Below are positions 10,887 to 28,617 of a stretch of DNA of 64,000 bases, piece after piece. The translations under genes were made by a program, and so were the position numbers. Positions within the stretch are counted from its first letter, which is position 1. Each line of letters starts with the position of its first letter. Where the stretch lies: positions 866 to 64,865 of the forward strand of contig CAMYIG010000001.1 of the NCBI GenBank assembly GCA_947258425.1, read 5' to 3'. Origin of the DNA: an uncultured Gammaproteobacteria bacterium (lineage in GTDB: Bacteria; Pseudomonadota; Gammaproteobacteria; SZUA-140). The notes beneath the pieces are model-generated. The model did no database searches, was not told the origin of the DNA, and saw nothing but the letters and a program-made list of their open reading frames with translations.

Positions 10887-11537
10887 ATGATTAAGGCGCT
10901 TTTTCCCTCACAAGTTGTCACCGTCACGGCAACGCCTGCCATGTGGGATGGCAAACTCTACCCCGAAGAGGCCGCTTTCATCCAGAAAGCGGTCATTAAA
11001 CGGAGACGCGAATTCACTGCTGGTAGACTATGTGCAAAAGCGGCGTTAAAAGCATTGGGGGTCACCGGCTTTCCAGTGCTGTCAGGGGGAGAGCGTGAAC
11101 CACTCTGGCCACCCGGCATCACCGGTAGCATCTCCCATTGCGATGACTATTGCGGAGTCGCACTGGCGCGTCAAGCAACGCTCACAAGCATTGGGCTAGA
11201 CATTGAAACCATTAGACCGTTAGACGACGACCTCGAAGCGATGATCTGCACACCGCAGGAAATAACACGCGCTAACCTATCTCCACCACCCTCAGGCAGC
11301 AATTGGCAAAAATTTATATTCAGTGCCAAAGAGTCTGTCTATAAATCACTGTTTCCAGTCACGCGAATTTACCTGGATTTTCAAGACCTCGACATAACCT
11401 TCGACAGTGACAGGTTGCAATTTTCAGCCACTCTGCTCACCCAGCTTCCAACAGAATATAACCTGCCAGACACCCTGACTGGCCACTTCAGGTACAACGA
11501 AAGTCACATCTTTACCGGAATTTCACTATCCCAATAA
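10887..11537 (+). CDS. 4'-phosphopantetheinyl transferase (Sfp/EntD type)
   Basis: EFTAGRLCAKAA, GSISHCDDY, GLDIETI and FSAKESVYK motifs of EntD/Sfp PPTases. It is adjacent to the NRPS genes. Confidence 0.85.
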   Translation: MIKALFPSQVVTVTATPAMWDGKLYPEEAAFIQKAVIKRRREFTAGRLCAKAALKALGVTGFPVLSGGEREPLWPPGITGSISHCDDYCGVALARQATLTSIGLDIETIRPLDDDLEAMICTPQEITRANLSPPPSGSNWQKFIFSAKESVYKSLFPVTRIYLDFQDLDITFDSDRLQFSATLLTQLPTEYNLPDTLTGHFRYNESHIFTGISLSQ

Positions 11538-11539
11538 AC

Positions 11540-12142
11540 CTAATATTTACCCAGAATAAGCCGCGCCTCACCCAGTAACATTGAGGGGTCATCCGCTGAT
11601 ACCGCTTTATAGACAGCCATTACATCCACATAATAAGTATTCCCAATCCCCCCTGAGCATGGCGGCAAATAACCGCCTACATCACCGCGATCGCTTCGGT
11701 GAAGTGCCTCAACATAAACGCCTTCCGGCAGGGCAGTGGTCTCAGCCGGAACAGAAGGGAACACAATGGAAGTCGTATCATTCGCCAGCGACATTCCTAT
11801 AACGCCATGGCCACCATTCAGCATCGGCTCGTAAGTTAAATCCCCAAATGCGAGCAGCACAGCATTTGCCTGTAATGGAATGTCAGAAATTAAGAGTGAA
11901 GGACTAGCCCCGCTGCCACCAAAATTGCGGCACTGCTGACCGTCTGGCACCGAGACCCCATCCCATTCTGAATCTGTGAAAGCGACCGCCAGTTGTGCGA
12001 CCTGTTCAGCTGGCGGGTAGGCACTCAATGGCAACTCAGGTTTGGCATCACGTTTAACGTAGAAAATAATGCCGACAAGCAGCCCTATAAAAATGATCGT
12101 GGACAGCAGGTATATCAGTTTATATGACTTATTAATATGCAT
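11540..12142 (-). CDS. Hypothetical membrane-anchored protein (N-terminal TM, periplasmic domain)
   Basis: 200-aa ORF with an N-terminal hydrophobic helix. I found no recognisable motif. It converges on the PPTase gene with a 2-nt gap. Confidence 0.4.
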   Translation of the reverse strand: MHINKSYKLIYLLSTIIFIGLLVGIIFYVKRDAKPELPLSAYPPAEQVAQLAVAFTDSEWDGVSVPDGQQCRNFGGSGASPSLLISDIPLQANAVLLAFGDLTYEPMLNGGHGVIGMSLANDTTSIVFPSVPAETTALPEGVYVEALHRSDRGDVGGYLPPCSGGIGNTYYVDVMAVYKAVSADDPSMLLGEARLILGKY

Positions 12143-12169: not shown

Positions 12170-13009
12170 TTAGTCTCTATTTAATTCGCGCGCATAAGCT
12201 TGCGCCATCCAGCCACTAATAGTCTCAATTAACTTTTCTTTATCTTTTCTCAGGATATAGGTGTGGTCTGATTCCGGAAAATAATTAACCTGTAGCTGGT
12301 CATTAAAATTCACGGCGCTGAACATATCCTTAAATTGTCCGGCATAATTATAGTCCTCATGGCCGCCACTGTAGACATACAACAGGTTTACTTTGCGCTC
12401 AACCAACTCGCGCAACTCTGCCTCGGTCTGTTGCTTTGGGGGTAATACCCAGAAGTAATCATCCTGACCTGGTCCATCGTCGACACCATCCCCTGAGGGT
12501 GAAATTAGACGTTTAATTCGGTTAAACCATCCACTCAACGAAAACAGACGGGCGCCATAGCGGCGCATCAGAAATGCAGGGGTACGATATGCGTAGCCGT
12601 CAAGAAAAATGGCACCGACCACTCGAGGGTCAATCACAGCCCCCTTATGCGCATTGGCAGCGCCGGTACATAACCCAAACAGGATGAACTTTTTGACGCC
12701 GTATTTACTCGTAAAGAAATCCATTGCAGCCTGAATATCACCAATGATCTGTTCTTCATAAGCACGCGTATCTTTATGCTTCTGGCTATCACCAATCCCA
12801 GATAGATCGAACCGAAAGGATCGCACACCCTGCACTGCTAAACGACGGGCTAATTCAACATGTAACCTAAAGGGGCCGACTCGATGGAGTAAGCCTGCAT
12901 TGAGCATAATAACGGCAGGCAACGTATCGTTAGCGACGGCCTCATCCACTTCGGTCGCAATGCCAACGAGGTCTTTATCCTGCCCAAAAGTAAATACGCG
13001 CTCCATCAC
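12170..13009 (-). CDS. Alpha/beta hydrolase-fold protein with a Cys nucleophile (candidate XrtA-associated hydrolase 1/2 type; possible acyl/peptidyl transferase)
   Basis: FRFDLSGIGDS loop; nucleophile elbow FILFGLCTGA (GxCxG, Cys where Ser is usual); C-terminal ESDHTY His. Its 4-nt overlap with the upstream gene indicates coupling. Confidence 0.7.
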   Translation of the reverse strand: MMERVFTFGQDKDLVGIATEVDEAVANDTLPAVIMLNAGLLHRVGPFRLHVELARRLAVQGVRSFRFDLSGIGDSQKHKDTRAYEEQIIGDIQAAMDFFTSKYGVKKFILFGLCTGAANAHKGAVIDPRVVGAIFLDGYAYRTPAFLMRRYGARLFSLSGWFNRIKRLISPSGDGVDDGPGQDDYFWVLPPKQQTEAELRELVERKVNLLYVYSGGHEDYNYAGQFKDMFSAVNFNDQLQVNYFPESDHTYILRKDKEKLIETISGWMAQAYARELNRD

Positions 13010-13788
13010 TTAGCACCCTCCGAAAGCATCATCACAATATCCTGCAATAATGTACTGAGTAGTAGTGCTGATTCGAGTTCTGATAACGCATCCCAATTGC
13101 CAGCGTCATCAATCACGCGGTATTCGACATCGGCACTCTGTAAACAATCGTAAAGCGCTTGATACTCGTCTTTAGCATCAGAACCTACTATAAATACCCG
13201 CTTTGCTTTCGCTAAAAAATCTTTTTTCAGATCTAATGCTTCAATCTCAGAACACATTTCCTCAGAAAATGAAAAACCCAACAGTTCATTTTCGCCTTCG
13301 CCCTGCCGAGGTACGCTAAAACGATCAGGGTCAGCCAACATCTGCTGATGCATAGACTTTTGTGACGCGATGTAGTCTCGTCCACTGACCACGGGATCCC
13401 AGAGCACGAGCTCTTCAATATTCAAAGACTCTATTGAGGACGCAATCACAGCCCCCAGGCGCAACCCCACTAATGACACTCGCGTATTGCCCGACAGGCT
13501 CTTTAACTCTTCCACCGCCATCGAGACATCTTCGCAGCTTTGTGTCAGACGCCACTCTTCTGACGAGCCAGATGAATCACCCGTTCCATAGTAATCAAAT
13601 CGAAGCACATGAAAACCGGCCTTCGCCAGCAGGTCGGCCAGGCGATTAAACATTTTAAATGACCGCATGTATTCCTGGCCGAATGGATAGCAAAGCACAA
13701 CACTCGTATCTCGTAAGTCACGAGATCTTGGCGGGTGATAGATGCCAAACAGCTGCTTATTGGAAGCGCCAAAAAAGAATGGATTCAT
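13006..13788 (-). CDS. Alpha/beta hydrolase-fold protein, apparently nucleophile-less (pseudo-hydrolase?)
   Basis: LRFDYYGTGDSSG loop; the expected nucleophile elbow reads SLVGLRLGAV, with Arg in the Ser position; no obvious C-terminal catalytic His. ATGA overlap with the downstream hydrolase gene. Confidence 0.65.
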   Translation of the reverse strand: MNPFFFGASNKQLFGIYHPPRSRDLRDTSVVLCYPFGQEYMRSFKMFNRLADLLAKAGFHVLRFDYYGTGDSSGSSEEWRLTQSCEDVSMAVEELKSLSGNTRVSLVGLRLGAVIASSIESLNIEELVLWDPVVSGRDYIASQKSMHQQMLADPDRFSVPRQGEGENELLGFSFSEEMCSEIEALDLKKDFLAKAKRVFIVGSDAKDEYQALYDCLQSADVEYRVIDDAGNWDALSELESALLLSTLLQDIVMMLSEGAK

Positions 13789-13929: not shown

Positions 13930-16900
13930 CTATTTATTGAGCAACCTATTTTTAATTTTATTAAAAAAACCGGGAGATGCCGCAGCTTTTCGCTCAACGT
14001 TCGCTGACGAATCGACCGATCGTTGTTGTTGCCCCCCTGTGTCCTGTATATCAGGCTTACTGTCCACATCAGGAAGCGAATGCGTTGCCGCAATGGCTCC
14101 CAGCGACTCCATCAATAAAACCCTTGGTGAAATCACAACCGCGGTCTCTTTCCGAATGCGTTCAATCACCTTCATCGACAACAATGAGTGCCCACCCAGA
14201 TCAAAAAAATTATCGTGCACACTCACTCGTTCAATACCCAGTGCTTCACACCACACGGTAGCAAGGTATTTTTCTGTCCCTGTTTCAGGGGAGACATACT
14301 CATCATTTTCATAACTATCACCAAAGGGCGCTGGTAAACGTTTCCGATCTAATTTACCGTTCGGTGTCACCGGAAAACCGTCCATTTCAACGATGTGCTG
14401 AGGCACCATATATTCGGGTAACAGGGCACGCAAGTGCGTCCTTATTTCTGTCACTGTGGCGCCTTCGCCTCGCTTATAAATAAGATAGGCCACCAGGCGA
14501 TGATCACCAGGACGATTTTCCCAGACGTTCACTACAGCTCGCTCAATGGCATCATGTTCGCTGAGCGCAGACTCAATCTCACCCAGCTCTATTCTAAAGC
14601 CTCGCACCTTTACCTGATTATCAATACGTCGCATGTACTCAACATTACCATCATCGTGATAGAACGCGAGGTCACCTGTGCGATAGAGTCGACTATTTTC
14701 ATCAAATGGATTTGGAACAAAACGCTCTGCCGTCAATTCTGGGCGATTCAGATAATCGCGCGCAAGGCCAGCGCCACCAATATAAATCTCACCCGGGACA
14801 CCAACAGGCACAGGAAGGAGATGCTCATCAAGCAGATAAATCTGCGTGTTTTCGATCGGTCGACCGATCAATACTGTTGCCTCATCCGCATCACGTTTCA
14901 CTTGATAACGCATCGACCATACTGTCGTTTCTGTCGGGCCATAGAGATTCCATAACTCATCGCATTTTTCAACAAGTTGGCTTGCCAGTTCACGCGGCAT
15001 TGCTTCACCACCGCATAATACCTTCAGGCCTGATGTGCCCTGCCAATCTGATTCCAGTAGTAAACGCCAGGTAATCGGGGTTGCCTGCATAACAGTGATA
15101 TTTTCACTGGCGATAAGCGCCAGTAGACGGGTGCCATCAGAAGCCGCATCACGACTTGCGATGACCGTTGTAGCACCGGTCGTCAGTGGCAAATAGAGTT
15201 CAAGTACTGCAATATCAAAAGAGATAGTGGTCACAGCAAGCAGACGATCAACTTCTGTCAAACCTGGCGCACGCCGCATCGCACAAAGAAAGTTGACCAC
15301 GGCACGGTGCGGCAGCGTCACTCCCTTGGGCTTTCCGGTTGAACCGGATGTATAAATCACGTAAGCAAGATCATCAGATTGACCTTGCTTTAGCGGGTTT
15401 CGATCATCTTCTGCAGCAATCTTCGACCAGTCACTATCGATAAAGACGGTGCGCCCCGCATAACCCGTCAGACGTTCTTTTAACGCCGCCTGAATCACCA
15501 CTAACGGGGCCTGACTATCGCTCAACATATATGCCAGACGTTCTGTTGGATACGCAGGATCAAGCGGCACGTAAGCGCCCCCTGCTTTCAAAATGCCCAA
15601 CAACCCCACCATCATATCCAGTGAGCGCTCAACACATATGCCGATTAGTTGGCCGGGCTCGACACCTGCTTTAATTAAATAATGCGCTAGCTGGTTTGCT
15701 CGCTTATTTAGTTCGGCATAACTTAAATGCTTATCCTCAAAAACGCATGCGGATTTATCGGGAAAACGTTCAACTTGCGCCTCGAAGAGCTCATGCAGCT
15801 TGCTTTCAGCAGGAAACACTACGTTTGTGTTGTTCCACTCATTAATAATAAGTGACCTCTGCTCATCATCAAGTAACGACAGTGTTGCCAATTTTGCATC
15901 AGGTTGCTCAACAACCCGCATGAGCAGCACCTCAAACAGTTTAACCAAACGTTCAATGGTGTGTGCCTCGAATATATCAGCATTATATGCTAGTGCACCT
16001 GAAATTCCATCCGCGCTATCAGACAACATTAAATCAAGGTCAAAATGAGCAGTACCTCTTTCAAATTGATATTCACTCACTTCCACGCCAGACAAAGGAA
16101 AGTTATCGCACAAGGTTTCATTATGAAGCATAAACATCACCTGAAACATTGAGGTATGATTCAATGCTCGATGATGAGGAATCTTCTCCAGAATACTTTC
16201 GAACGGAAGATCCTGATGCGAAAAACAATCGACAGTAGACTCAGCAACATGCTCGACAATATCTCTAAACGTTGAGTCTGATGAAAACTCTGTACGCATC
16301 ACCAGATTATTAGAAAAATCCCCGAACATACTATCTAACTCTGGTCGGCTGCGGACCGTCGGTGACATACCCGTTAAAATATCTTCCTGGTTAGTATAGC
16401 GATACAGCAGACACTGGAATGCAGATAACAGCGACATAAATAAAGTCGAACCTAACGTTCCGCTTAATATTTTAAGTTGCTGGGAAAGCGTCTTCGGCAA
16501 TAAAAACCGATGGGTCCTACCCTTAAATGACATCACTCTTGGCCGCGGATGATCAGTCGGTAGATCAAGCACCGTGTTCGCATCCTGTAGATAGGCTTTC
16601 CAGTACTCCAGCTGGTTATTCACCTCATTAGACGCCAGCCAGTACTTTTCCCATAATGCAAAGTCACGGTACTGCGCAATGAAATTATCACCAGCCCCAT
16701 CGCCTACAGGGTTAGAGCCATCCGTTTTATGCGCGTTATAAGTAGTACTTATCTCGTTAACAAGTAACCGTACAGAAAGACCATCCATTGCGAAATGATT
16801 CGTTGTCATGATGAACACATGCTCATCTTCCGCCAACTGAATAACCAACACCCGTAAGTTAATATCATTGGTAAGATCAAACGGCGTACTAATTTCAGCA

Positions 16901-17325
16901 TTCACCGTTTCGAGCAGTTGACGTTCTTGCGCCTCAGAGGAGATAGCCTTCAAATCATCAACGACCATGCTAAACAGCGTCGATGGCAACAACTTCTGAT
17001 AAAGTTCATCCTCGCCCTCTAAACAGGCAGTTCGTAACACTTCATGACGTTGTACTACCTGCTGAAGACTTTTCTCGAGAATTGTAAGATCTAACTCACC
17101 CTTGAGTCGCACTATAAAAGATTCATTATAAGCAGAGCTTGCAGGATCCATCTGATAGATAAACCAGAAACGTCGTTGCGCTGATGACAAAGGCACCATT
17201 ACATCTTCAGCAACACGTGGCAGCGGTAATTGTTTCAATCCAATCTCGATGTCATCCAGCATTACGTCAAATAATTCGAGCTGATCTGAAGAGAGCGCAT
17301 CCAGCGCTTGATATACATCCTTCAT
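13930..17325 (-). CDS. NRPS module C-A-T with predicted Gly specificity; no TE domain
   Basis: C-domain core TNHFAMDGLS (HHxxxDG variant). A-domain cores LSYAELN.., YVIYTSGSTGKPKGV, NLYGPTETT, YRTGDL, GRIDNQVKVRGFRIELGEIE, NGKLDRK. Stachelhaus positions read by eye against GrsA give D-I-L-Q-L-G-L-V-W-K, close to the Gly code DILQLGLIWK. PCP FFDLGGHSL. A ~60-aa Ser/Gln-rich tail follows, with no thioesterase. ATGA overlap with the upstream NRPS gene. Confidence 0.9.
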   Translation of the reverse strand: MKDVYQALDALSSDQLELFDVMLDDIEIGLKQLPLPRVAEDVMVPLSSAQRRFWFIYQMDPASSAYNESFIVRLKGELDLTILEKSLQQVVQRHEVLRTACLEGEDELYQKLLPSTLFSMVVDDLKAISSEAQERQLLETVNAEISTPFDLTNDINLRVLVIQLAEDEHVFIMTTNHFAMDGLSVRLLVNEISTTYNAHKTDGSNPVGDGAGDNFIAQYRDFALWEKYWLASNEVNNQLEYWKAYLQDANTVLDLPTDHPRPRVMSFKGRTHRFLLPKTLSQQLKILSGTLGSTLFMSLLSAFQCLLYRYTNQEDILTGMSPTVRSRPELDSMFGDFSNNLVMRTEFSSDSTFRDIVEHVAESTVDCFSHQDLPFESILEKIPHHRALNHTSMFQVMFMLHNETLCDNFPLSGVEVSEYQFERGTAHFDLDLMLSDSADGISGALAYNADIFEAHTIERLVKLFEVLLMRVVEQPDAKLATLSLLDDEQRSLIINEWNNTNVVFPAESKLHELFEAQVERFPDKSACVFEDKHLSYAELNKRANQLAHYLIKAGVEPGQLIGICVERSLDMMVGLLGILKAGGAYVPLDPAYPTERLAYMLSDSQAPLVVIQAALKERLTGYAGRTVFIDSDWSKIAAEDDRNPLKQGQSDDLAYVIYTSGSTGKPKGVTLPHRAVVNFLCAMRRAPGLTEVDRLLAVTTISFDIAVLELYLPLTTGATTVIASRDAASDGTRLLALIASENITVMQATPITWRLLLESDWQGTSGLKVLCGGEAMPRELASQLVEKCDELWNLYGPTETTVWSMRYQVKRDADEATVLIGRPIENTQIYLLDEHLLPVPVGVPGEIYIGGAGLARDYLNRPELTAERFVPNPFDENSRLYRTGDLAFYHDDGNVEYMRRIDNQVKVRGFRIELGEIESALSEHDAIERAVVNVWENRPGDHRLVAYLIYKRGEGATVTEIRTHLRALLPEYMVPQHIVEMDGFPVTPNGKLDRKRLPAPFGDSYENDEYVSPETGTEKYLATVWCEALGIERVSVHDNFFDLGGHSLLSMKVIERIRKETAVVISPRVLLMESLGAIAATHSLPDVDSKPDIQDTGGQQQRSVDSSANVERKAAASPGFFNKIKNRLLNK

Positions 17326-21641: not shown

Positions 21642-24600
21642 TCATTCGTCTTCAAGCTCACCCAATAGCGCAAGCAACTCATCTTCGTTTACATTCTCCA
21701 GCATCATCTGTTCAATCTTGCTGGAAAAATCGACCAATCGAGGCGAAAGAAAGATCGCTTGAAGTGGAATATCAATCGCAAAGTCCTGTCGGATGCGTGT
21801 AATCAACTGCACCGCGATCAACGAATGCCCGCCAATCTCGAAGAAATTATCGTACAACCCCACCTGCTTGAGCCCCAGTAACGCCTGTAAAATAGTAGCG
21901 ACCTGAATCTCAACTTCGCTAGCAGGTGCGACATATTCTGCCTGAGTATCAATATTCCCTTGCTCCGGCACTGGGAGTTTTTTACGATTAATTTTTCCAT
22001 TCGGTAATAATGGCAATCCCGCTAGCACGACGTAATTTACGGGCACCATAAATTCAGGTAAATGTTGTCCCAGATAGTTGCGTAGCGCATTGATATTGAT
22101 GTCAGTGCCTGTGTCTGGCACCACATACGCAACAAGCTTTTTATTCCCGGGCTCATCTTCTCGCAGTAGCACAAGCGCGTCATTCACTTCGGTATTCTCT
22201 AACAGAAGCTTCTCGATCTCACCCAGCTCAATCCGATAGCCATGTAGCTTGACCTGATGGTCGATGCGCCCCATGAACTCCAGCCGCCCATCACGACCCA
22301 TGCAGACCAGGTCGCCCGTTCGATACATACGGTCATTTAAATCACCACTCACACTGTTTTTTACAAACTTTTCAGCAGTGAGCTCGGGGCGATTCAGATA
22401 ACCCCGTACCACGCCGTCACCGGCAATTACCAGTTCACCCGGCACACCCAGCGGCTGAAGTTGCATATTGTTATCCAGCACATAGGTCTGTGTATTCGCA
22501 ATCGGGGAGCCCAATGGAATATCTGCGTCTGCCTCATGTAAATGATACGTGGTTGACCAGATCGTCGTCTCAGTCGGCCCGTACATATTCGTCACTTGAC
22601 CTTTCACCAATGAACGCAGCTTTACTGCCAACTGACTCGAAAAGGCTTCACCGCCCACCATCATATGAGACAAGCATCCCAGTGCGTGATGCATCTGCTG
22701 GTCTGATGCCAGCATATTGGCCATCGTTGGCGTACATTGAAAATGCGTGACGTTGTGTCGCTCGATAAGTGCAGCGATGGAATAATCCTTATCCGCCCCA
22801 TCAGACTGCGGCGGGTTAGCCGCCTCCTTCACCTGGCTTAGATAATGGAGGTGGGCCAGTACTTTTTCGGTCTCGATGCCAAAATCGATCAGACAACCGA
22901 TCTCATCCACCCCTATTTCCTTGAGTTGATCTGCACGTTCAACGCATCGTTCAACATTCCCAAAGAGCCCGCTGTGGTTATAATAGCGATCAAACGCGAA
23001 GGCCAGCAGGCTATCTCTATCCTCATCAGAAATATTATTAAAAAACTCATCCATGGTCTGCTCTGTACCCTCGGATACCTGCTTCCACGCCGGGCTATGC
23101 CACGCGGCCGCTTTCACCAGAGAAACTGCACTTTCCAGATAGTCCATCATCGGCTGCTGTGCAACATCACGCACCTGCGCCTCATCATCGCCGATGAAGG
23201 TGTGTAGCATTAATGTGACTTGCCCATCACCTGCATGACCGGCCTCTTTCCAGGCGCTACGATAGAGCCGAATATTCTCTGCCACCTTTTCAATATCCTG
23301 TCCGAGCAGGTGCGTCAGCACATGTGCACCAATTGATCCAGCCTGTCGGAAGGTGTCAGGATTCACCGCAACCGTTACCCAAATTGGTAACTTTTCCTGA
23401 ATAGGTCTAGGGTAGGTGCGGACTTCAACATCGCCTTTCGGCCCCGCAAACGTGACAGCCTCACCTTTCCATAATTGCTGGATAGTCTCAACGGAATCAA
23501 ACATGATCTCTTTTGCGCGCGCATGATTCTCAGGCTTGATCACAAAATCATTCGGCTGCCAGCCGGGCGCAATCGAAAGCCCCGCACGGCCATTGGAAAG
23601 GTTATCCACCACCGACCACTCTTCTGCGATGCGAATAGGGCTATGCAGTGGCACCACACAACTGCCCGCACGAATACCGATGTTTTGCGTAGTGGCCGCC
23701 AGTGCGGCACCGATGACTGAGGGGTTAGGGTACAGTCCGCCAAAGGCACCGAAATGTCGCTCAGGTGTCCATAGCGCTTCGAAGCCATTTTTGTCGGCGT
23801 ATTTAGCGCTTTCGAGCAGTAACTTATACTTATCTGCCTCGCGAGATGCCTCGTCTTTTACAAAATTCCAGTAAAAAAGACTAAAGGCAATCGGCTGAGC
23901 GGGGTATCGTGTCGCCACTTCCCCAGCCTTCAGGTCATCACCGGCGTAGAGCACCAGTTTAAACCCTCGACAGAGACTCCAGAAAATCTCAAGCACGGAG
24001 ATATCAAACGATATACTGGTCACAGCCAACCACACACCCGGGGAATCATGCGCAATGCGCTCATCCATGCCTGCGAAGAAATTCACCACATTACGGTGTT
24101 CGACCATCACCCCTTTGGGACGCCCGGTCGAGCCCGAAGTATATATCACATAAGCCAGACTCGATGACGCGCACGGGATTTCAAGATTATTATCGCTCTC
24201 GACATCGATTCGACTTCGCTCAAGATCAACCTGCAACAACTTTTCACCGGGCAGATAATTTGCGTAATCAGACTGGGTAACTACCAACGCCAGCTCTGCG
24301 TCATCGGCCATATAAACCAAACGATCTTTGGGATAAGTGGGATCCAGTGGCACATAGGCCGCGCCTGTTTTCCACGTTGCCAATAGCGCGATCACCATAT
24401 CAAAGGAACGATCCAACATCACACCGACCAGATCATCTACACCCACGCCATGTTTTACCAGATAGTGCGCCAGCTGATTTGCGCGAGCATTCAACTCATG
24501 ATAACTGAGGCTGTCATTGTGAAATGCCAGCGCGGATGTATCCGGTGTAGACACTACTTGTTGTTCAAACAGCTGAAATACACATCGATTTTCAGGGTAT

Positions 24601-27600
24601 GCAGTGGCAGTACCCGTGGCTATTTTTAATATGGCCTGTTGCTCTTCTCTCGGTAAAATCGGCACACTCGCTACCGGCGTATTGAGATCTTCAACCATGA
24701 CCTCCAGCACTTTTAGATAGTGCGCCAGCATACTTTCCATACGCGCTTGCGAGAAAAGGTCGGTGCAATATTCAAGTACCGCCTCCAGTCCAGAGGGACG
24801 CTCCCACATATAAAGGGTCATGTCATATTTTGAAGTACCACTATGAGTGTCCAGCTGTATCGTCCGCATGCCGGGAAGATTCATCACCGATTCATGCTCA
24901 AGCGCATCAAAAATAAACATCACCTGAAAAACCGGTGCATAACGTAAATCACGCTCTGGATTGAGCGCCTCAACCAATTTATCGAATGGCAATCCCTGAT
25001 GCGCAAAATCTGCAATGGTCGTCTTACGCACGCGGGCGATCAACTCTCTCAGTGAAACATCGCCTGATAGATCACAACATAAAGGGAGTGAGTTCATAAA
25101 CAGTCCGAGCATCGCTTCGGTCTCGAGCGGCTCGCGGTTCGCGACCGCAGTACCGACCACAAAATTCTCCTGTGATGAGTAGCGGTGGAGCAGTAATTGA
25201 TAGGCCGCCAACAGCAGCATAAATAGACTGGAACGCTCCTGTTGCGCAATGATATTAAGTCGCTGATGTAGCGCAGACGGTATCTTCAGGGTCACAGAAC
25301 TGCCATTAAATTGCTGCACGGACGAGCGTGGGAAATCAGTTGGTAACTCCAGTACCGGCGGCATCTGCTTTAACCGAGGCAGCCAGTAATCAATCTCCGC
25401 CTGAAGACGATCATCGGCCATATAAGTACTTTGCCAGGCAGTATAGTCAGCGTAATCGGCTGAGAGCTGAGGTAATTGCGGTTCAACGCCACTCACCATC
25501 GCACCATATACCTGCTCGAGCTCGCTTGCCAGCAGACGCACTGACCAGCCGTCAAACACGATGTGATGGATCACAAACGTCATCACATATTTTGATGGTG
25601 CCAGTTTGATAATATTGCAGCGCCACAACGGTCCCTGTTCGATATCGAACAGAGTGTGCGCCTCATTTGTGATCAACTTATCTATTTCCGCCTGCGGATC
25701 TGACGCCTGACTCAAGTCATGCATGAATACCGGCAAGTCGACCTGACCCGCTATCACCTGTGTCGGCGCGCCCCCTTTCACTGAAAACGTGGTACGCATT
25801 GAAGCGTGGCGCTTAACGATTACCGCCATCGCTTGTTTAAAGAGCTCGGGATCAAAATCACCATCGATCTTAAATGCATAAGGGATGTTATAGAGTGCGC
25901 CCACCTGCTCCATTTGCTCAAAAAACCAGATGCGACTCTGCATAAATGAAAGCGGGATATCGCCAGCATGTTCTTTTTTGTGTAGCACTGGTTGTGTCAC
26001 GGCCACATCCGTTACTGCCGATGACGAGATATATTTCGCAAGTTCAGCAATGGTGGGGGAGTTAAAGAGTGCAGTAATAGAAAGCTGCACACCGAACTCA
26101 CGCCGCAACCGGGCGACCATCTGCGCGGCCAGCAGGGAGTGGCCACCGGCATGAAAAAAATTAGCGTTCACACCTACTCTCTCTACACCCAAAAGGGCCT
26201 GCCATATCGCTGCGATCCTGGTTTCTGTATCGCCTGTCGGTGCAACATAATCACGATCTTCGAACAGGTCCGCGTACCGAGGATGGGGTAGCGCCTTTTT
26301 ATCCACCTTGCCATTCGCCGTTAAAGGAATCTCCGCAACAAAGACAAAATGCTGTGGAACCATATGGACAGGCAGACCATTGGCGACATAATCACGTAGT
26401 GCATCGACCTGTAGGCTGTCAGACTTTTTAACCACATACGCCACCAGGCGCTGGTCACCCACACCCAATTCAATGACATTCAATGCAACCTGCTTAACCT
26501 CGGGGTACGCAATGAGAAGCGATTCGATCTCACCAAGTTCTATTCTAAAGCCGCGCAATTGCACCTGGTCGTCAATTCGCCCTAGGTATTCCAGTTCATT
26601 ATTGGAGAGGCGGCGCGCTAAATCGCCAGTACGATACAGTCGGATGACAGTGCCGTTTTCTAACGTGTGGTTAATAAAACGTTCTGCGGTCAAGTCAGGC
26701 CGATTCAAATAGCCCTTCGATAGACCATCGCCGGCAACATACAGCTCCCCTTTCTGCCCATCGATAACAGGCTTCATCGCGTCATCAAAAAGATAGAGTT
26801 TCAGGTCTGGAATGGCCCGGCCAATCAGACTCCCCTTCGGGTGATCCACATCATCACGAGAAATGGGACGATACGTCACGTGCACGGTTGTTTCGGTGAT
26901 ACCGTACATATTAATCAATTGCGGGGCGTTGTCTCCGTGACGGGAAATCCACGGTTTTAAAGCGGCCAGGTTGAGCGCTTCACCGCCGAAGATCACATAA
27001 CGTAACGCCAGTGTATCTGCTGTGTGTCGCTCTTCATCCACCAGCTGTAGCTGCTGGAATGCTGAGGGGGTTTGATTCAGGACGGTGACCCCTTGCGATA
27101 TCAGCAGGGTATAAAACAATTCCGGGGTGCGTGCTGTTTCCGCTGACACAATCACCAGGCTGCCACCGTAGCTCAGCGCGCCCCAAATCTCCCACACAGA
27201 AAAATCAAAGGCATATGAGTGAAACAGGGTCCAGACATCATCCACACCAAAATCAAACCAGTGGTTAGTGGAATCAAAAAGCCGGGATACATTTTTATGA
27301 GTTACCTGCACTCCTTTGGGTGCCCCGGTAGAGCCCGAGGTATAGATGACATAGGCAAGGTGCTCGTCAGTCACCGCTACAGCAGGATTTTCTACTGTCG
27401 ATGAACCCTTCTCCATCGCATCAATCAATAAAATTTTAGCCGAACAGGCGGGTAAATTTTCGACCAGCGTCTGCTGCGTTACCAGTACAGCAGGTTTGGC
27501 ATCATTCAGGGTGTAGGCAATACGGGAAGCGGGGTAATTCGGGTCAACCGGCACATAGGCAGCGCCTGCCTTTAAAATACCCAAAATACCGATCACTGTA

Positions 27601-27815
27601 TCAAATGAGCGCGAAACACATAACCCAACCAGTGAACCCGGCGTGACCTCCTGTGTGATAAGCGCATTGGCGAGCTGGTTTGCCTGAGCATTAAGCTCAC
27701 CATAGGTAAGCTGGCGATCCTCCCAGATCAAGGCCGTCTTATCAGGATTACGTTGCGCATTGAGTTCAAAGCGCTGGTAACAGGTCGAAAGAGTAGTCAC
27801 ACAATCACCATTCAC
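21642..27815 (-). CDS. NRPS A(Thr)-T-C-A(Gly)[MOx]-T: loading module plus an elongation module whose A domain is interrupted by a luciferase-like monooxygenase
   Basis: A1 cores YVIYTSGSTGAPKGV, FDFS, NMYGITETT, YRTGDL, GRIDDQVQLRGFRIELGEIE, NGKVDKK; its Stachelhaus residues D-F-W-N-I-G-M-V-H-K match the Thr code exactly. T1 FFHAGGHSL. C-domain HHIVFDGWS. A2 cores YVIYTSGSTGRPKGV and FDIS, then a ~375-aa insert starting IAFSLFYWNF (bacterial luciferase-like monooxygenase), then NMYGPTETT, YRTGDL, GRIDHQVKLHGYRIELGEIE, NGKINRK. The A2 code D-I-L-Q-M-G-M-I-W-K is near the Gly code. T2 FFEIGGHSL. The acidic C-terminal tail EDELLALLGELEDE is a possible docking partner. Confidence 0.9.
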   Translation of the reverse strand: MNGDCVTTLSTCYQRFELNAQRNPDKTALIWEDRQLTYGELNAQANQLANALITQEVTPGSLVGLCVSRSFDTVIGILGILKAGAAYVPVDPNYPASRIAYTLNDAKPAVLVTQQTLVENLPACSAKILLIDAMEKGSSTVENPAVAVTDEHLAYVIYTSGSTGAPKGVQVTHKNVSRLFDSTNHWFDFGVDDVWTLFHSYAFDFSVWEIWGALSYGGSLVIVSAETARTPELFYTLLISQGVTVLNQTPSAFQQLQLVDEERHTADTLALRYVIFGGEALNLAALKPWISRHGDNAPQLINMYGITETTVHVTYRPISRDDVDHPKGSLIGRAIPDLKLYLFDDAMKPVIDGQKGELYVAGDGLSKGYLNRPDLTAERFINHTLENGTVIRLYRTGDLARRLSNNELEYLGRIDDQVQLRGFRIELGEIESLLIAYPEVKQVALNVIELGVGDQRLVAYVVKKSDSLQVDALRDYVANGLPVHMVPQHFVFVAEIPLTANGKVDKKALPHPRYADLFEDRDYVAPTGDTETRIAAIWQALLGVERVGVNANFFHAGGHSLLAAQMVARLRREFGVQLSITALFNSPTIAELAKYISSSAVTDVAVTQPVLHKKEHAGDIPLSFMQSRIWFFEQMEQVGALYNIPYAFKIDGDFDPELFKQAMAVIVKRHASMRTTFSVKGGAPTQVIAGQVDLPVFMHDLSQASDPQAEIDKLITNEAHTLFDIEQGPLWRCNIIKLAPSKYVMTFVIHHIVFDGWSVRLLASELEQVYGAMVSGVEPQLPQLSADYADYTAWQSTYMADDRLQAEIDYWLPRLKQMPPVLELPTDFPRSSVQQFNGSSVTLKIPSALHQRLNIIAQQERSSLFMLLLAAYQLLLHRYSSQENFVVGTAVANREPLETEAMLGLFMNSLPLCCDLSGDVSLRELIARVRKTTIADFAHQGLPFDKLVEALNPERDLRYAPVFQVMFIFDALEHESVMNLPGMRTIQLDTHSGTSKYDMTLYMWERPSGLEAVLEYCTDLFSQARMESMLAHYLKVLEVMVEDLNTPVASVPILPREEQQAILKIATGTATAYPENRCVFQLFEQQVVSTPDTSALAFHNDSLSYHELNARANQLAHYLVKHGVGVDDLVGVMLDRSFDMVIALLATWKTGAAYVPLDPTYPKDRLVYMADDAELALVVTQSDYANYLPGEKLLQVDLERSRIDVESDNNLEIPCASSSLAYVIYTSGSTGRPKGVMVEHRNVVNFFAGMDERIAHDSPGVWLAVTSISFDISVLEIFWSLCRGFKLVLYAGDDLKAGEVATRYPAQPIAFSLFYWNFVKDEASREADKYKLLLESAKYADKNGFEALWTPERHFGAFGGLYPNPSVIGAALAATTQNIGIRAGSCVVPLHSPIRIAEEWSVVDNLSNGRAGLSIAPGWQPNDFVIKPENHARAKEIMFDSVETIQQLWKGEAVTFAGPKGDVEVRTYPRPIQEKLPIWVTVAVNPDTFRQAGSIGAHVLTHLLGQDIEKVAENIRLYRSAWKEAGHAGDGQVTLMLHTFIGDDEAQVRDVAQQPMMDYLESAVSLVKAAAWHSPAWKQVSEGTEQTMDEFFNNISDEDRDSLLAFAFDRYYNHSGLFGNVERCVERADQLKEIGVDEIGCLIDFGIETEKVLAHLHYLSQVKEAANPPQSDGADKDYSIAALIERHNVTHFQCTPTMANMLASDQQMHHALGCLSHMMVGGEAFSSQLAVKLRSLVKGQVTNMYGPTETTIWSTTYHLHEADADIPLGSPIANTQTYVLDNNMQLQPLGVPGELVIAGDGVVRGYLNRPELTAEKFVKNSVSGDLNDRMYRTGDLVCMGRDGRLEFMGRIDHQVKLHGYRIELGEIEKLLLENTEVNDALVLLREDEPGNKKLVAYVVPDTGTDININALRNYLGQHLPEFMVPVNYVVLAGLPLLPNGKINRKKLPVPEQGNIDTQAEYVAPASEVEIQVATILQALLGLKQVGLYDNFFEIGGHSLIAVQLITRIRQDFAIDIPLQAIFLSPRLVDFSSKIEQMMLENVNEDELLALLGELEDE

Positions 27816-27882: not shown

Positions 27883-28617
27883 TTAGTGCGGTGAGTTACT
27901 AGACCGCCAGAATGTCACGGCCTGTGACATCCCCTCAAATACATGAAATCCCGGATATTGTTCAACATTCCATGTATCATATTTTTCTAGCCAACCGACC
28001 GATGCAAGTACTTTATCGTGCACTGGTGTGACATACACCAGTCGAAAAGCACGAGGATTCTTATCCAGCGAGCAGCGAATCGCCGCAAGTACTTCTAACA
28101 CTGTAATTTCCCCAAAGGGGTTGAACATAAACACGACGGTTACATCGTCAAAATCATACGCCTGAGCCAACCCTTCACGAAGCTCGATGTCAGCCTTCCG
28201 CCCGCGCAATTTCTGAGCATTTAAACGCGCAATGGGTAAAAAACTGCTGTTATATTCAAGCCCAATCACGCGCCCAACGTCTGTTCGCGCAGCGACGCTG
28301 AGTGTTCGCCCTTTACCACATCCCAGATCGACAAAGACATCTCGAGCATCTAAAGCGAGATGTTTCATGATGTCATGCAACAACAGGTACGGCGTTGCTT
28401 CATAACGAAAGCCGTCCTGTGGCATACCGATATCAACGATTGCCTCGGTATTGATCCCTAAATAGCGCTCCCAAAACTTGTCATGGAGTCTTATTTCATA
28501 GGGTGCAGCCCCAATTGCCTCACCCTTTCTAAAAATATAACGCGCCAGAAGAACATCTTTGTTTTTGATAATGAATCTGGGTAACTTCACAAAAAGAAGT
28601 TTCAGCTGGTTTAACAA
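27883..28617 (-). CDS. Class I SAM-dependent methyltransferase
   Basis: Motif I VDLGCGKGRTL and a Rossmann-type fold order. 244 aa. Immediately upstream of the NRPS operon. Confidence 0.7.
   Translation of the reverse strand: MLNQLKLLFVKLPRFIIKNKDVLLARYIFRKGEAIGAAPYEIRLHDKFWERYLGINTEAIVDIGMPQDGFRYEATPYLLLHDIMKHLALDARDVFVDLGCGKGRTLSVAARTDVGRVIGLEYNSSFLPIARLNAQKLRGRKADIELREGLAQAYDFDDVTVVFMFNPFGEITVLEVLAAIRCSLDKNPRAFRLVYVTPVHDKVLASVGWLEKYDTWNVEQYPGFHVFEGMSQAVTFWRSSNSPH

What the first reader, a model, noticed from the sequence alone, without database searches (positions are those of the whole stretch)
21642..27815. Loading Thr module plus a Gly module whose A domain is split between A4 and A5 by a luciferase-like monooxygenase (MtaG/MelG-like architecture)
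The first A domain gives a Stachelhaus code of D-F-W-N-I-G-M-V-H-K, a 10/10 match to the Thr code, read against GrsA numbering. The second A domain reads D-I-L-Q-M-G-M-I-W-K, i.e. Gly, and carries a ~375-aa luciferase-like monooxygenase insert (IAFSLFYWNF..) between FDIS (A4) and NMYGPTETT (A5). In myxothiazol MtaG and melithiazol MelG, exactly this Gly-A(MOx) arrangement alpha-hydroxylates PCP-bound glycine, and the hemiaminal collapses to a terminal amide. Here the MOx module is not terminal: two further modules follow on separate proteins. The chemistry may therefore differ: a mid-chain alpha-hydroxyglycine, an oxidative chain scission giving a glyoxylyl-peptide, or hydroxylation of another position. 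The acidic C-tail EDELLALLGELEDE against the basic N-terminus of the next NRPS (KKRLEGLTPEKRALLIKK) supports colinear hand-off to the Cy module.
Basis: partly seen in the sequence, partly recalled or inferred. Interest (0 to 1): 0.75.

Follow-up and report, generated by a model that had tools for sequence, protein, structure and literature searches.

The report
Mid-line glycine-hydroxylating NRPS module
This gene encodes a peptide-assembly enzyme whose glycine-loading domain is split by a built-in flavin oxygenase; unlike the textbook cases this module sits in the middle of the assembly line, and the cluster lies inside an exosortase/exopolysaccharide locus, so its product is probably a short peptide that keeps a hydroxylated glycine rather than a peptide ending in an amide.

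Summary
ORF 21642-27815(-) encodes a 2057-aa NRPS with the domain order A-T-C-A(LLM)-T. Alignment to GrsA/1AMU gives the codes DFWNIGMVHK (Thr) and DILQMGMIWK, which is 9/10 to the MtaG/MelG/CtaG/FtaE code. A 382-aa TIGR04020 luciferase-like monooxygenase is inserted between motifs A4 and A5.

The module feeds Cy-A-T-Ox and C-A(Gly)-T proteins. There is no TE. Two alpha/beta-hydrolase-fold proteins follow instead.

Non-terminal placement is not rare. In 79 genome loci the closest relatives are mostly formyltransferase-like-A(MOx)-T loading modules that feed a PKS. Two other lineages repeat A(MOx)-T then Cy-A-T-Ox. Solanimycin SolF is a published mid-chain Gly-monooxygenase module whose alpha-hydroxyglycine is retained.

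Best reading: the LLM alpha-hydroxylates T-bound Thr-Gly, and the carbinolamide is carried on into a Thr-Gly(OH)-(methyl)oxazole-Gly-type product. MtaG-like scission is the main rival. The LLM is well conserved but is the outlier at five near-invariant positions.

Verdict: a new variant of a known kind, of moderate interest.

The parts
21642..27815 (-). NRPS1, 2057 aa: A(Thr)-T-C-A(Gly, split by LLM)-T
   Evidence: ORF list and translation; Pfam and NCBIfam domain hits
26286..27770 (-). A1 loading adenylation domain (aa ~16-510), code DFWNIGMVHK (Thr)
   Evidence: PF00501/PF13193 hits; alignment to 1AMU numbering; this code is listed among Thr-type codes in PMC12283262
26028..26219 (-). T1 carrier domain (aa 533-596), GGHSL motif
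   Evidence: PF00550 hit; motif read
24627..25964 (-). Condensation domain (aa 618-1063), HHIVFDG motif
   Evidence: PF00668, 356 bits; motif read
23940..24563 (-). A2 N-terminal part (aa ~1085-1292) through motif A4 (SISFDISVLE). Supplies code positions 235/236/239 = D, I, L
22794..23939 (-). Inserted luciferase-like monooxygenase (aa 1293-1674; HMM match aa 1311-1663)
   Evidence: TIGR04020 484 bits and PF00296 171 bits; 6KET PuwE E 1e-105; 105 of 111 family-conserved positions kept
21951..22793 (-). A2 C-terminal part (aa ~1675-1955). Supplies code positions 278-517 = Q, M, G, M, I, W, K, giving the full code DILQMGMIWK (Gly/MOx type)
21696..21923 (-). T2 carrier domain (aa ~1965-2040), GGHSL motif: the presumed carrier of the hydroxylation substrate
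   Evidence: second PF00550 stretch; phmmer map
21645..21695 (-). Acidic C-terminal tail (NVNEDELLALLGELEDE), docking-like
   Evidence: similar acidic tails in L003 and L081
17322..21503 (-). [not shown]
   Evidence: code is 9/10 to LeuA DMFNFGVLWK, listed as Thr/beta-OH-Thr
13930..17325 (-). NRPS3, 1131 aa: C-A(Gly, DILQLGLVWK)-T with no TE. Its start overlaps the NRPS2 stop by 4 bp
13006..13788 (-). Hyd2: alpha/beta-hydrolase-fold protein with Arg110 at the nucleophile position (GLRLG)
   Evidence: Pfam; best NCBIfam hit TIGR03101, 104 bits, below cut-off 203; GxRxG conserved in 12/12 homologues
12170..13009 (-). Hyd1: alpha/beta-hydrolase-fold protein with Cys114 at the nucleophile position (GLCTGA). 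Candidate off-loading enzyme. Its start overlaps the Hyd2 stop by 4 bp
   Evidence: Pfam; best NCBIfam hit TIGR03100, 81 bits, below cut-off 168; GLCxGA, His249 and Asp68 conserved in 6/6 homologues
11540..12142 (-). 200-aa protein with an N-terminal hydrophobic stretch read as a membrane anchor; no family match. Last gene of the same-strand run
10887..11537 (+). Sfp/PptT-type 4'-phosphopantetheinyl transferase (convergent)
   Evidence: PF17837 + PF01648; NF050105, 136 bits
27883..28617 (-). Class I SAM methyltransferase, 67 bp upstream of NRPS1 on the same strand; target unknown
   Evidence: same neighbour in the MAG contig L001

Best explanation
The gene is the first protein of a four-module, TE-less NRPS line: A(Thr)-T, then C-A(Gly)[LLM]-T, then Cy-A(Thr/Ser-type)-T-Ox, then C-A(Gly)-T.

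Shown directly: the domain order, the codes, the insertion site and the intact core motifs.

Inferred by homology: the inserted FMN-dependent luciferase-like monooxygenase uses reduced flavin and O2 to hydroxylate the alpha-carbon of the glycyl thioester on T2. This most likely happens after the C domain has made Thr-Gly-S-T2, because every A(MOx) in the family is preceded by an N-capping domain.

Inferred from context: the resulting N-acyl carbinolamide is kept rather than collapsing. The Cy domain of the next protein takes it over, using the conserved acidic-tail/basic-head pair. Cy cyclises its own Thr/Ser residue onto the Gly(OH) carbonyl and Ox aromatises the ring to a (methyl)oxazole. 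The last module adds Gly. The chain is then removed from the last T domain by the Hyd2/Hyd1 pair, with Hyd1 Cys114 as nucleophile, either by hydrolysis or by transfer to an acceptor.

Predicted scaffold: Thr-(alpha-hydroxy)Gly-(methyl)oxazole-4-carbonyl-Gly, possibly methylated by the adjacent methyltransferase.

My probabilities: alpha-hydroxylation of Gly by the LLM about 0.75; retention given hydroxylation about 0.65; the whole statement about 0.5.
For: - Architecture and codes.
- LLM family and integrity: TIGR04020 at 484 bits and a full-length match to the PuwE LLM. The window keeps 105 of 111 positions conserved at >=95% across 80 A(MOx) domains, including the TPERHF segment with His1354.
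- Role of this LLM family: alpha-hydroxylation next to carrier-bound thioesters.
- Retention has precedent: SolF, a mid-chain Gly-A with embedded FMO, gives solanimycin B in which the alpha-hydroxyglycine is retained and the chain is extended further. Stand-alone LLMs Sky39 and NyuM are linked to the retained alpha-hydroxyglycine of skyllamycin and nyuzenamide: Sky39 is reported as shown to be responsible, NyuM is only proposed.
- Comparative argument for passing the T-bound part on: 68 of 82 related A(MOx) domains are loading modules behind a formyltransferase-like domain and feed a PKS. 9 of 12 A(MOx) found in giant NRPSs are followed by a C domain. Ignavibacteria loci carry two A(MOx) modules in tandem.
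- The same hand-off, A(MOx)-T then Cy-A-T-Ox, recurs in L003 and L081 with conserved tail and head motifs.
- Cy-module code is 9/10 to LeuA (Thr/beta-OH-Thr); L081 and L082 are identical to LeuA.
- Relatives L002/5/7/23/57/61/76 likewise carry a last C-A(Gly)-T module; Hyd2 follows it in L002, L005, L007, L061 and L076 (with Hyd1 in L007, L061 and L076), lies upstream in L057, and was not seen in L023.
Against: - No product, no biochemistry and no cultured host. Every chemical step is inferred.
- The characterised enzymes with the same a4-a5 insertion (MtaG, MelG, CtaG, FtaE; FshJ proposed) are all read as scission enzymes. The retention precedent SolF has its oxygenase at a8-a9.
- The window LLM is the sole or near-sole deviant among 80 sequences at G1484V, R1553Q, K1557M, F1574S and F1577W. 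Its activity or substrate handling may therefore be altered.
- No flavin reductase gene is evident in the cluster.
- The Cy-module substrate rests on a 10-residue code only; L003 has the intermediate code DLYNFGTLWK.
- Hyd1 and Hyd2 score below the NCBIfam cut-offs, and Hyd2 lacks a nucleophile.
Confidence: 0.5

Rival explanations
1. MtaG-like scission in mid-line. The LLM hydroxylates Thr-Gly-S-T2 and the carbinolamide collapses. Threoninamide leaves, and glyoxylyl-S-T2 becomes the de facto starter for the Cy module. The product would be a 2-formyl-(methyl)oxazole-4-carbonyl-Gly type. By the same logic the F-A(MOx)-T relatives would be generators of a glyoxylyl starter unit.
For: All characterised a4-a5 A(MOx) modules are interpreted as carbinolamide-cleaving, leaving T-bound glyoxylate. 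The window code is 9/10 to theirs. In the commonest relatives the N-cap is only a formyl-type group, which would be a cheap leaving group.
Against: A whole A-T-C module would be spent to make a discarded threoninamide. Free glycyl-S-T would lose NH3 spontaneously after hydroxylation, so a dedicated N-capping domain is unnecessary if glyoxylyl were the goal (inference). Tandem A(MOx) modules (L011, L016) and A(MOx) deep inside 5-6-module NRPSs make little sense under obligatory scission. Acyclic alpha-hydroxyglycine survives in solanimycin B and spergualin.
Confidence: 0.22
2. The LLM insert is catalytically impaired or skipped, and the line makes plain Thr-Gly-(methyl)oxazole-Gly. Solanimycin A is made in a comparable way, by skipping the FMO step.
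For: The window is the only sequence of 80 with Q at 1553 (78 have R), M at 1557 (79 have K), S at 1574 (79 have F), W at 1577 (78 have F) and V at 1484 (77 have G). Skipping of an embedded FMO is documented for SolF. No reductase gene is seen in the cluster.
Against: 105 of 111 conserved positions are kept, the TIGR04020 match is full length at 484 bits, and the 382-aa insert has an intact reading frame in two assemblies that differ at 3 residues. This fits purifying selection. PuwE also lacks Lys at the position of 1557, so that residue is not essential to the fold family. MtaG-type clusters also lack a dedicated reductase (general knowledge).
Confidence: 0.15
3. The LLM performs a different oxidation: over-oxidation of the carbinolamide to an oxalyl/imide, Baeyer-Villiger-type chain cleavage as proposed for CalD/MndB, or hydroxylation of another residue.
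For: TIGR04020 LLMs are credited with hydroxylation, epoxidation and chain-shortening reactions in different pathways. The unusual lid-region substitutions could reflect a changed reaction.
Against: All 80 A(MOx) domains keep a Gly-type code, which ties the oxygenase to a glycyl substrate. Every documented NRPS-embedded case is Gly C-alpha hydroxylation.
Confidence: 0.08

Closest known systems
MtaG / MelG / CtaG / FtaE (myxothiazol, melithiazol, cystothiazole and the FtaB/FtaE pathway of Myxococcus fulvus) and FshJ (fischerazole): C-A(MOx)-T-TE terminal-amide modules
   Same: A Gly-type A domain (DILQLGMIWK versus DILQMGMIWK here) interrupted between a4 and a5 by a luciferase-like monooxygenase. 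An N-acyl-glycyl thioester is the substrate.
   Different: Those modules end the line and carry a TE. The upstream chain leaves as a primary (or N-methyl) amide and the T-bound glyoxylate is waste. Here there is no TE, and a Cy-A-T-Ox protein and a C-A-T protein follow, so the T-bound part must be passed on.
SolF module 4 of solanimycin (Dickeya solani)
   Same: A mid-chain Gly-activating A domain with an embedded flavin monooxygenase. The alpha-hydroxyglycine is retained and the chain is extended further.
   Different: The oxygenase is reported between a8 and a9, not a4-a5. The upstream partner is a polyene PKS and the downstream partner an iterative Ser module. It is not in an exosortase locus. 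I did not compare the sequences directly.
Stand-alone LLMs Sky39 (skyllamycin) and NyuM (nyuzenamide)
   Same: LLM-class flavoenzymes linked to a retained alpha-hydroxyglycine in an NRP. Sky39 is reported as shown to be responsible; NyuM is proposed on similarity.
   Different: They act in trans, are not embedded in the A domain, and their products are macrocycles.
PuwE-type LLM domains of PKS/NRPS hybrids (puwainaphycin, microginin; PDB 6KET)
   Same: Same TIGR04020 LLM fold family. 6KET is the best solved-structure match (E 1e-105) and aligns over nearly the full length. The chemistry is alpha-hydroxylation next to a carrier-bound thioester.
   Different: They sit in a PKS/aminotransferase context, act on a fatty-acyl chain, and are not inside an A domain.
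Uncharacterised formyltransferase-like-A(MOx)-T loading modules with KS-AT-KR-DH-T(-TE) or PKS + C-A(Gly)-T + Hyd2/Hyd1 (loci L002-L080)
   Same: These are the closest sequence relatives (48-57% over A-LLM-A; the LLM is up to 64% identical). 54 of 80 A(MOx) domains (the window included) have the identical code. L002/5/7/23/57/61/76 also carry a last C-A(Gly)-T module, 12 of 79 loci carry Hyd2 (most with Hyd1), and EPS/exosortase neighbours are frequent.
   Different: In the window the N-cap is a full A(Thr)-T-C unit instead of the formyltransferase-like domain. The extender is Cy-A-T-Ox instead of a PKS module (as also in L003 and L081). No product is known for any member.

Membership tests
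A(MOx) interrupted adenylation domain, MtaG/MelG type | Gly-type specificity code (DILQLGMIWK in MtaG, MelG, CtaG, FtaE) | tested here: met
   DILQMGMIWK by alignment to 1AMU, which is 9/10 to the published code. 54 of 80 A(MOx) domains in the set (the window plus the genome loci) have exactly the window's code.
A(MOx) interrupted adenylation domain, MtaG/MelG type | Luciferase-like monooxygenase inserted between core motifs a4 and a5 | tested here: met
   The insert (aa 1293-1674) maps to GrsA residue ~256-264, after FDxS and before residue 278/NxYGPTE. TIGR04020 484 bits.
A(MOx) interrupted adenylation domain, MtaG/MelG type | Chain-terminating module C-A(MOx)-T-TE | tested here: not met
   No thioesterase domain in NRPS1-3. 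Cy-A-T-Ox and C-A-T proteins follow.
A(MOx) interrupted adenylation domain, MtaG/MelG type | Carbinolamide collapse giving a terminal amide plus T-bound glyoxylate | not testable with these tools
   Needs an in vitro assay or product analysis.
A(MOx) interrupted adenylation domain, MtaG/MelG type | Direct sequence relationship to MtaG/MelG | not tested
Only their published code and architecture were compared.
SolF-type mid-chain Gly-A(FMO) module (solanimycin) | Gly A domain with an embedded flavin monooxygenase, followed by further elongation modules | tested here: met
   description of SolF
SolF-type mid-chain Gly-A(FMO) module (solanimycin) | Oxygenase inserted between a8 and a9 | tested here: not met
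   The insertion here is between a4 and a5. The SolF position is taken from the paper.
SolF-type mid-chain Gly-A(FMO) module (solanimycin) | alpha-Hydroxyglycine retained in the final product | not testable with these tools
   No product is known.
TIGR04020 natural-product LLM (MupA/Atu3671 family) | Full-length match above the curated cut-off | tested here: met
   484 bits against cut-off 244.45, profile positions 1-341 of 341
TIGR04020 natural-product LLM (MupA/Atu3671 family) | Family-invariant residues of the A(MOx) clade retained | tested here: inconclusive
   105 of 111 positions kept. The window is the outlier at G1484V, K1514N, R1553Q, K1557M, F1574S and F1577W. The role of these residues is unknown.
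XrtA-system hydrolase 1 / hydrolase 2 (TIGR03100 / TIGR03101) | Score above the NCBIfam cut-off | tested here: not met
   Hyd1 scores 81 bits (cut-off 168) and Hyd2 104 bits (cut-off 203). These are the best hits, but below threshold.
XrtA-system hydrolase 1 / hydrolase 2 (TIGR03100 / TIGR03101) | Located in an exosortase A / PEP-CTERM locus | tested here: met
   XrtA, PrsK, PrsR, PrsT, chain-length determinant, Tyr kinase, export protein, EpsB_2 and the TIGR03015 ATPase all score above cut-off in the window.
Formyltransferase-like-A(MOx)-T loading-module clade (uncharacterised) | N-terminal formyltransferase-like region fused to A(MOx)-T | tested here: not met
   The window has A-T-C in that place. 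68 of 82 A(MOx) domains have the F-like region.

The most novel reading that the evidence does not exclude
The NRPS is not a free-standing antibiotic pathway. Together with the wider family of (formyltransferase-like or C)-A(MOx)-T lines and the Hyd2/Hyd1 pair, it would be a dedicated accessory of exosortase/PEP-CTERM exopolysaccharide systems. In this reading it builds a small Gly-derived carbinolamide (or glyoxylyl) acyl unit, and the Cys-hydrolase Hyd1 transfers that unit from the last carrier domain onto the polysaccharide or onto an acceptor used in PEP-CTERM protein sorting. The NRPS would stand in for the acyl-CoA-ligase family (TIGR03098) that NCBIfam also names as exosortase A system-associated.
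Probability: 0.15. Interest if true: 0.85.

Novelty: new variant of a known kind. Interest (0 to 1): 0.55.

Why it matters
The glycine adenylation domain split by a luciferase-like oxygenase is textbook only as a chain-ending device that makes terminal amides.

This locus and about 80 relatives show that the same a4-a5 device is mostly used at or near the start of assembly lines, or in mid-line. There its T-bound product must be carried forward. This makes a direct question testable: does the a4-a5 A(MOx) give a stable alpha-hydroxyglycine (as in SolF) or a glyoxylyl unit when a downstream module is present?

The recurrent pairing deserves experimental attention for two reasons. First, the partner is an unusual hydrolase pair, one with Arg and one with Cys at the nucleophile position. 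Second, the family is enriched next to exosortase/EPS genes. The only small-molecule genes I found linked to PEP-CTERM systems in the literature searched are N-acyl amino acid synthases.

If the chemistry turns out to be ordinary retention, the finding is a useful but incremental extension of SolF/MtaG knowledge.

Tried and rejected
- Full-length homologue search and the exhaustive representative search with A(MOx) were swamped by giant multi-module NRPSs. Apart from the window's own species (P0001/P0390), they gave only the census of internal A(MOx) modules after my own domain mapping.
- The LLM-only homologue search returned mainly short metagenomic fragments (at most 59% identity) and no named, characterised protein.
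- Bosamycin concerns a P450 domain and is irrelevant. The review of interrupted A domains only mentions MOx in passing.
- Literature searches for a formyltransferase + A(MOx) loading module, and for any NRPS/PKS-exosortase link, found nothing pertinent. Haft 2006 does not discuss the ligase/hydrolase genes in its main text. Craig et al. 2011 is not held.
- No NCBIfam model is specific for the F-like-A(MOx)-T proteins.
- Promoter and terminator scans were at chance level (30 found against 28.4 expected; 17 against 17.4), so they say nothing about operon limits.
- MAFFT without excising the insert misplaced the gap and gave a false code, GIEQMGMIWK. I rejected this in favour of the excised alignment.
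- I first assumed the Cy module was Cys-specific (thiazole). I rejected this after comparing codes: 9/10 to LeuA and unlike the DLYNLSLIWK-type codes that dominate the control Cy modules.
- Structure prediction was not run. The tool returns no coordinates, so it could not place the deviant residues relative to the flavin site.

Full report
**1. The observation**

ORF 21642-27815(-) is intact and encodes 2057 aa. Pfam and NCBIfam give the following:
- AMP-binding in three stretches (596 bits; best stretch aa 16-370)
- two PP-binding domains
- a Condensation domain at aa 618-1063 (356 bits)
- Bac_luciferase at aa 1314-1638 (171 bits)
- TIGR04020 'MupA/Atu3671 family FMN-dependent LLM' at aa 1311-1663, covering the whole 341-position profile (484 bits against a cut-off of 244)

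To read the specificity codes formally, I verified a GrsA fragment against PDB 1AMU; it is identical over residues 185-526. I then aligned the four A domains of the cluster to it. With the insert left in, MAFFT misplaced the gap. After excising aa 1293-1674 the codes are:
- A1: DFWNIGMVHK
- A2: DILQMGMIWK
- A3: DMYNFGVLWK
- A4: DILQLGLVWK

The junction maps to GrsA residue ~256. That lies after FDxS (a4) and before pocket residue 278 and NxYGPTE (a5). The insert aligns end to end with the solved LLM of PuwE (6KET, E 1e-105).

**2. The rest of the cluster**

On the same strand, in order:
- a SAM methyltransferase (27883-28617)
- NRPS1
- NRPS3 (13930-17325): C-A-T, with its start overlapping the NRPS2 stop
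- two alpha/beta-hydrolase-fold proteins, Hyd2 (13006-13788) and Hyd1 (12170-13009), with overlapping stop and start
- a 200-aa protein with an N-terminal hydrophobic stretch, read as a membrane anchor, that matches no family

A convergent Sfp-type PPTase follows. No thioesterase domain exists anywhere in the three NRPS proteins. The carrier serines, the HHxxxDG/NHxxxDG motifs and the A10 lysines are present (read).

A4 is a Gly code. A3 is 9/10 to DMFNFGVLWK, the code of LeuA (leupyrrin), which is listed as Thr/beta-OH-Thr. A3 is unlike the DLYNLSLIWK-type Cys codes that dominate 74 other Cy-module A domains. The heterocycle is therefore more likely a (methyl)oxazole than a thiazole.

**3. 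Relatives**

A scan of one genome per species with the A-LLM-A region found 79 loci. All are full-length matches at 48-57% identity, spread across Gammaproteobacteria, Betaproteobacteria, Myxococcota, Ignavibacteria, Spirochaetota, Planctomycetota and others.

I mapped domains with phmmer, using the window's own domains as queries, and checked examples with Pfam. Findings:
- All 80 A(MOx) domains carry DILQxGxxWK, and 54 carry exactly the window's code.
- Of 82 A(MOx) domains, 68 follow a ~560-aa formyltransferase-like N-terminal region and so are loading modules. Five follow a C domain (the window and Ignavibacteria). Nine are cut by contig ends.
- The usual continuation is KS-AT-KR-DH-T-TE. 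A recurrent variant is PKS(...T), then C-A(Gly)-T, accompanied in most cases by Hyd2 and Hyd1.
- Two independent lineages repeat the window's hand-off. L003 (a Thiohalobacter MAG) has C...A(MOx)-T, Cy-A-T-Ox, Hyd2, Hyd1 and a FemAB-like GNAT. L081 (a metagenome contig) has C-A(MOx)-T and Cy-A-T-Ox, with a divergent C-T-TE.
- In all three lineages the A(MOx)-T protein ends in an acidic helix-like tail, and the Cy protein begins with an L(S/T)PE(K/R)(K/R)ALL motif (LSPEKRALLAKKL in L003, LTPEKRALLIKKL in the window, LSPERKALLAQLIREKK in L081).
- Among the top 150 representatives, 12 giant NRPSs contain an A(MOx). One is C-A(MOx)-T-TE, two end with A(MOx)-T, and nine continue with a C domain.

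Non-terminal placement is therefore the rule in sequence space, although it is uncharacterised.

**4. Integrity of the LLM**

Across the 80 A(MOx) domains, 111 of 353 LLM columns are conserved at >=95%. The window keeps 105 of them, including the TPERHF segment. It is, however, the sole or near-sole deviant at:
- G1484V (77 have G)
- R1553Q (78 have R)
- K1557M (79 have K)
- F1574S (79 have F)
- F1577W (78 have F)

It also has K1514N. Four of these changes cluster in aa 1553-1577. PuwE keeps the Arg but has Cys at the 1557 position. The same residues occur in the second assembly of this species, which differs at only 3 of 2057 positions, so they are not sequencing errors. I cannot place them relative to the flavin site. 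They lower my confidence in canonical activity but do not look like decay.

**5. What is known**

- For MtaG/MelG (and CtaG, FtaE, and proposed for FshJ), the a4-a5 A(MOx) hydroxylates the alpha-carbon of the terminal glycine. The carbinolamide then collapses to a terminal amide, and the TE removes glyoxylate.
- For solanimycin, SolF module 4 is a mid-chain Gly module with an embedded flavin monooxygenase, reported between a8 and a9. The alpha-hydroxyglycine stays in solanimycin B and the chain is extended many more times. Skipping the step gives solanimycin A.
- The stand-alone LLM Sky39 is reported as responsible for the retained alpha-hydroxyglycine of skyllamycin; its homologue NyuM is proposed to do the same in nyuzenamide.
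- TIGR04020 LLMs in PKS contexts hydroxylate alpha to carrier-bound thioesters.

**6. Mechanism**

- Shown: the architecture, codes, insertion site and synteny.
- Inferred by homology: FMNH2/O2-dependent alpha-hydroxylation of the glycyl thioester on T2.
- Inferred from context: the substrate is N-acylated (Thr-Gly), because every A(MOx) has an N-capping domain upstream.

I favour retention of the carbinolamide and transfer to the Cy module, for four reasons:
1. In most relatives the T-bound part is what the line goes on to extend.
2. Tandem A(MOx) modules and A(MOx) deep inside long NRPSs are hard to reconcile with obligatory scission.
3. A glyoxylyl unit would not need an N-cap at all.
4. 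There are chemical precedents for stable acyclic alpha-hydroxyglycine.

The main rival is MtaG-like scission, giving threoninamide plus a glyoxylyl starter. That is what all characterised a4-a5 modules do. Smaller rivals are an impaired or skipped LLM and a different oxidation. Release is most simply assigned to Hyd1. Hyd1 has an invariant Cys114 at the nucleophile elbow together with conserved His249 and Asp68. Its partner Hyd2 has an invariant Arg110 at that position in 12/12 homologues.

**7.

The window holds a complete XrtA/PEP-CTERM system:
- PrsK (764 bits), PrsR (684), exosortase A with EpsI (234), PrsT (595)
- chain-length determinant (522), Tyr kinase (243), export protein (238)
- TIGR03016 outer-membrane protein, EpsB_2 priming transferase (577), TIGR03015 ATPase (363)
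- GT4 transferases and deacetylases
- a PEP-CTERM protein ending in VPEPATIAMMGLGLIGLGFMARRRNS

The NRPS genes lie between the ATPase and a FemAB-like GNAT. Hyd1 and Hyd2 best-hit the 'exosortase A system-associated' hydrolase 1/2 models, but below cut-off. NCBIfam also names an acyl-CoA-ligase family (TIGR03098) as exosortase A system-associated. Apart from the NRPS A domains, which hit it only below cut-off, no such ligase turned up among the window ORFs I scanned.

Using the window's EPS proteins as queries, 18 of 79 A(MOx) loci have chain-length, Tyr-kinase, export, exosortase, PrsT or ATPase-type neighbours within 10 kb. Agarilytica, for example, has ATPase, ChnLen, TyrKin, XrtA-like and PrsT-like genes immediately upstream. 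The control set of 79 NRPS loci, retrieved with the Cy protein, has only 2 (Fisher p = 1.7e-4). Relatedness among the loci inflates this figure, so it is a lead rather than proof.

The host is an uncultured gammaproteobacterium. Its OTC is ~85% identical to those of Chromatiales and Thiotrichales MAGs. The window matches a 92.8-kb NCBI contig, and the species is not among the GTDB representatives.

**8. Verdict**

The finding is real and was read correctly. It belongs to the known kind 'Gly A domain interrupted by an LLM'. It fails the MtaG/MelG membership test on the terminal C-A(MOx)-T-TE feature, and the SolF test on the insertion site. It is best filed as a new variant: an a4-a5 A(MOx) used in mid-line and feeding a Cy-Ox module, with a hydrolase pair in place of a TE, embedded in an exosortase locus. 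The chemistry is plausible but unproven. The exosortase link is the most novel lead.

Noticed in passing
window 8334-9332 and 34904-63927: The window is a complete XrtA/PEP-CTERM exopolysaccharide locus. PrsK, PrsR, XrtA+EpsI, PrsT, chain-length determinant, Tyr kinase, export protein, TIGR03016 OMP, EpsB_2 and the TIGR03015 ATPase all score above cut-off. The NRPS cluster is embedded in it, and none of the window ORFs I scanned is an exosortase-associated acyl-CoA ligase (TIGR03098).
   Followed up: partly
loci L002-L080 (e.g. L015 3-7234, L021 3-6191, L022 3581-6555): A(MOx) NRPS/PKS loci from many phyla often sit next to chain-length, Tyr-kinase, export, exosortase or PrsT-type genes. This holds for 18 of 79 loci against 2 of 79 control NRPS loci (Fisher p 1.7e-4, not corrected for relatedness).
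   Followed up: partly
loci L002-L080, e.g. L010 2726-14178, L002 8309-22687: There is a widespread, apparently undescribed architecture: a formyltransferase-like ~560-aa region fused to A(Gly, LLM-split)-T as a loading module (68 of 82 A(MOx) domains). It is followed by KS-AT-KR-DH-T-TE, or by a PKS, then C-A(Gly)-T, then in most cases Hyd2 and Hyd1. No NCBIfam family or paper was found for it.
   Followed up: partly
window 13006-13788 and 12170-13009: The hydrolase pair is unusual. Hyd2 has Arg110 at the nucleophile-elbow position (GxRxG, 12/12 homologues), so it is probably not a hydrolase. Hyd1 has Cys114 there (GLCxGA, 6/6 homologues) with conserved His249 and Asp68.
   Followed up: partly
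window 22794-23939 (LLM aa 1484, 1514, 1553, 1557, 1574, 1577): The window's LLM is the only one of 80 with V1484, Q1553, M1557, S1574 and W1577 at near-invariant G/R/K/F/F positions. Three basic residues are lost in the segment RxPMKxYLKS, which reads QQPMMDYLES here.
   Followed up: partly
window 17322-21503 (A domain of NRPS2); L081 11413-15654; L082: The Cy modules partnered with A(MOx) share a code of the DM[FY]NFGVLWK type, identical or 9/10 to LeuA of leupyrrin (Thr/beta-OH-Thr), rather than a Cys code. L003 has DLYNFGTLWK.
   Followed up: yes
L011 2-7979; L016 8201-17438: Ignavibacteria loci carry two A(MOx)-T modules in tandem, the second behind a C domain. This argues against obligatory carbinolamide scission in this family.
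   Followed up: no
L081 3249-6014 (minus strand): A C-T-TE protein with no A domain of its own is encoded divergently from C-A(MOx)-T / Cy-A-T-Ox. Its carrier would have to be loaded in trans.
   Followed up: no
window 54407-54970: A small secreted protein with a canonical PEP-CTERM sorting signal (VPEP, then a hydrophobic stretch, then RRR), similar to the flocculation protein PepA.
   Followed up: no
window 30822-32942: A 706-aa lipoprotein-like protein made of Big_9/cadherin-like tandem repeats lies between the FemAB-like GNAT and the glycosyltransferase block. It has no PEP-CTERM tail.
   Followed up: no
window 11540-12142: A 200-aa protein with an N-terminal hydrophobic stretch, read as a membrane anchor, ends the NRPS gene run. 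It matches no Pfam or NCBIfam family and has no homologue in the related loci.
   Followed up: no
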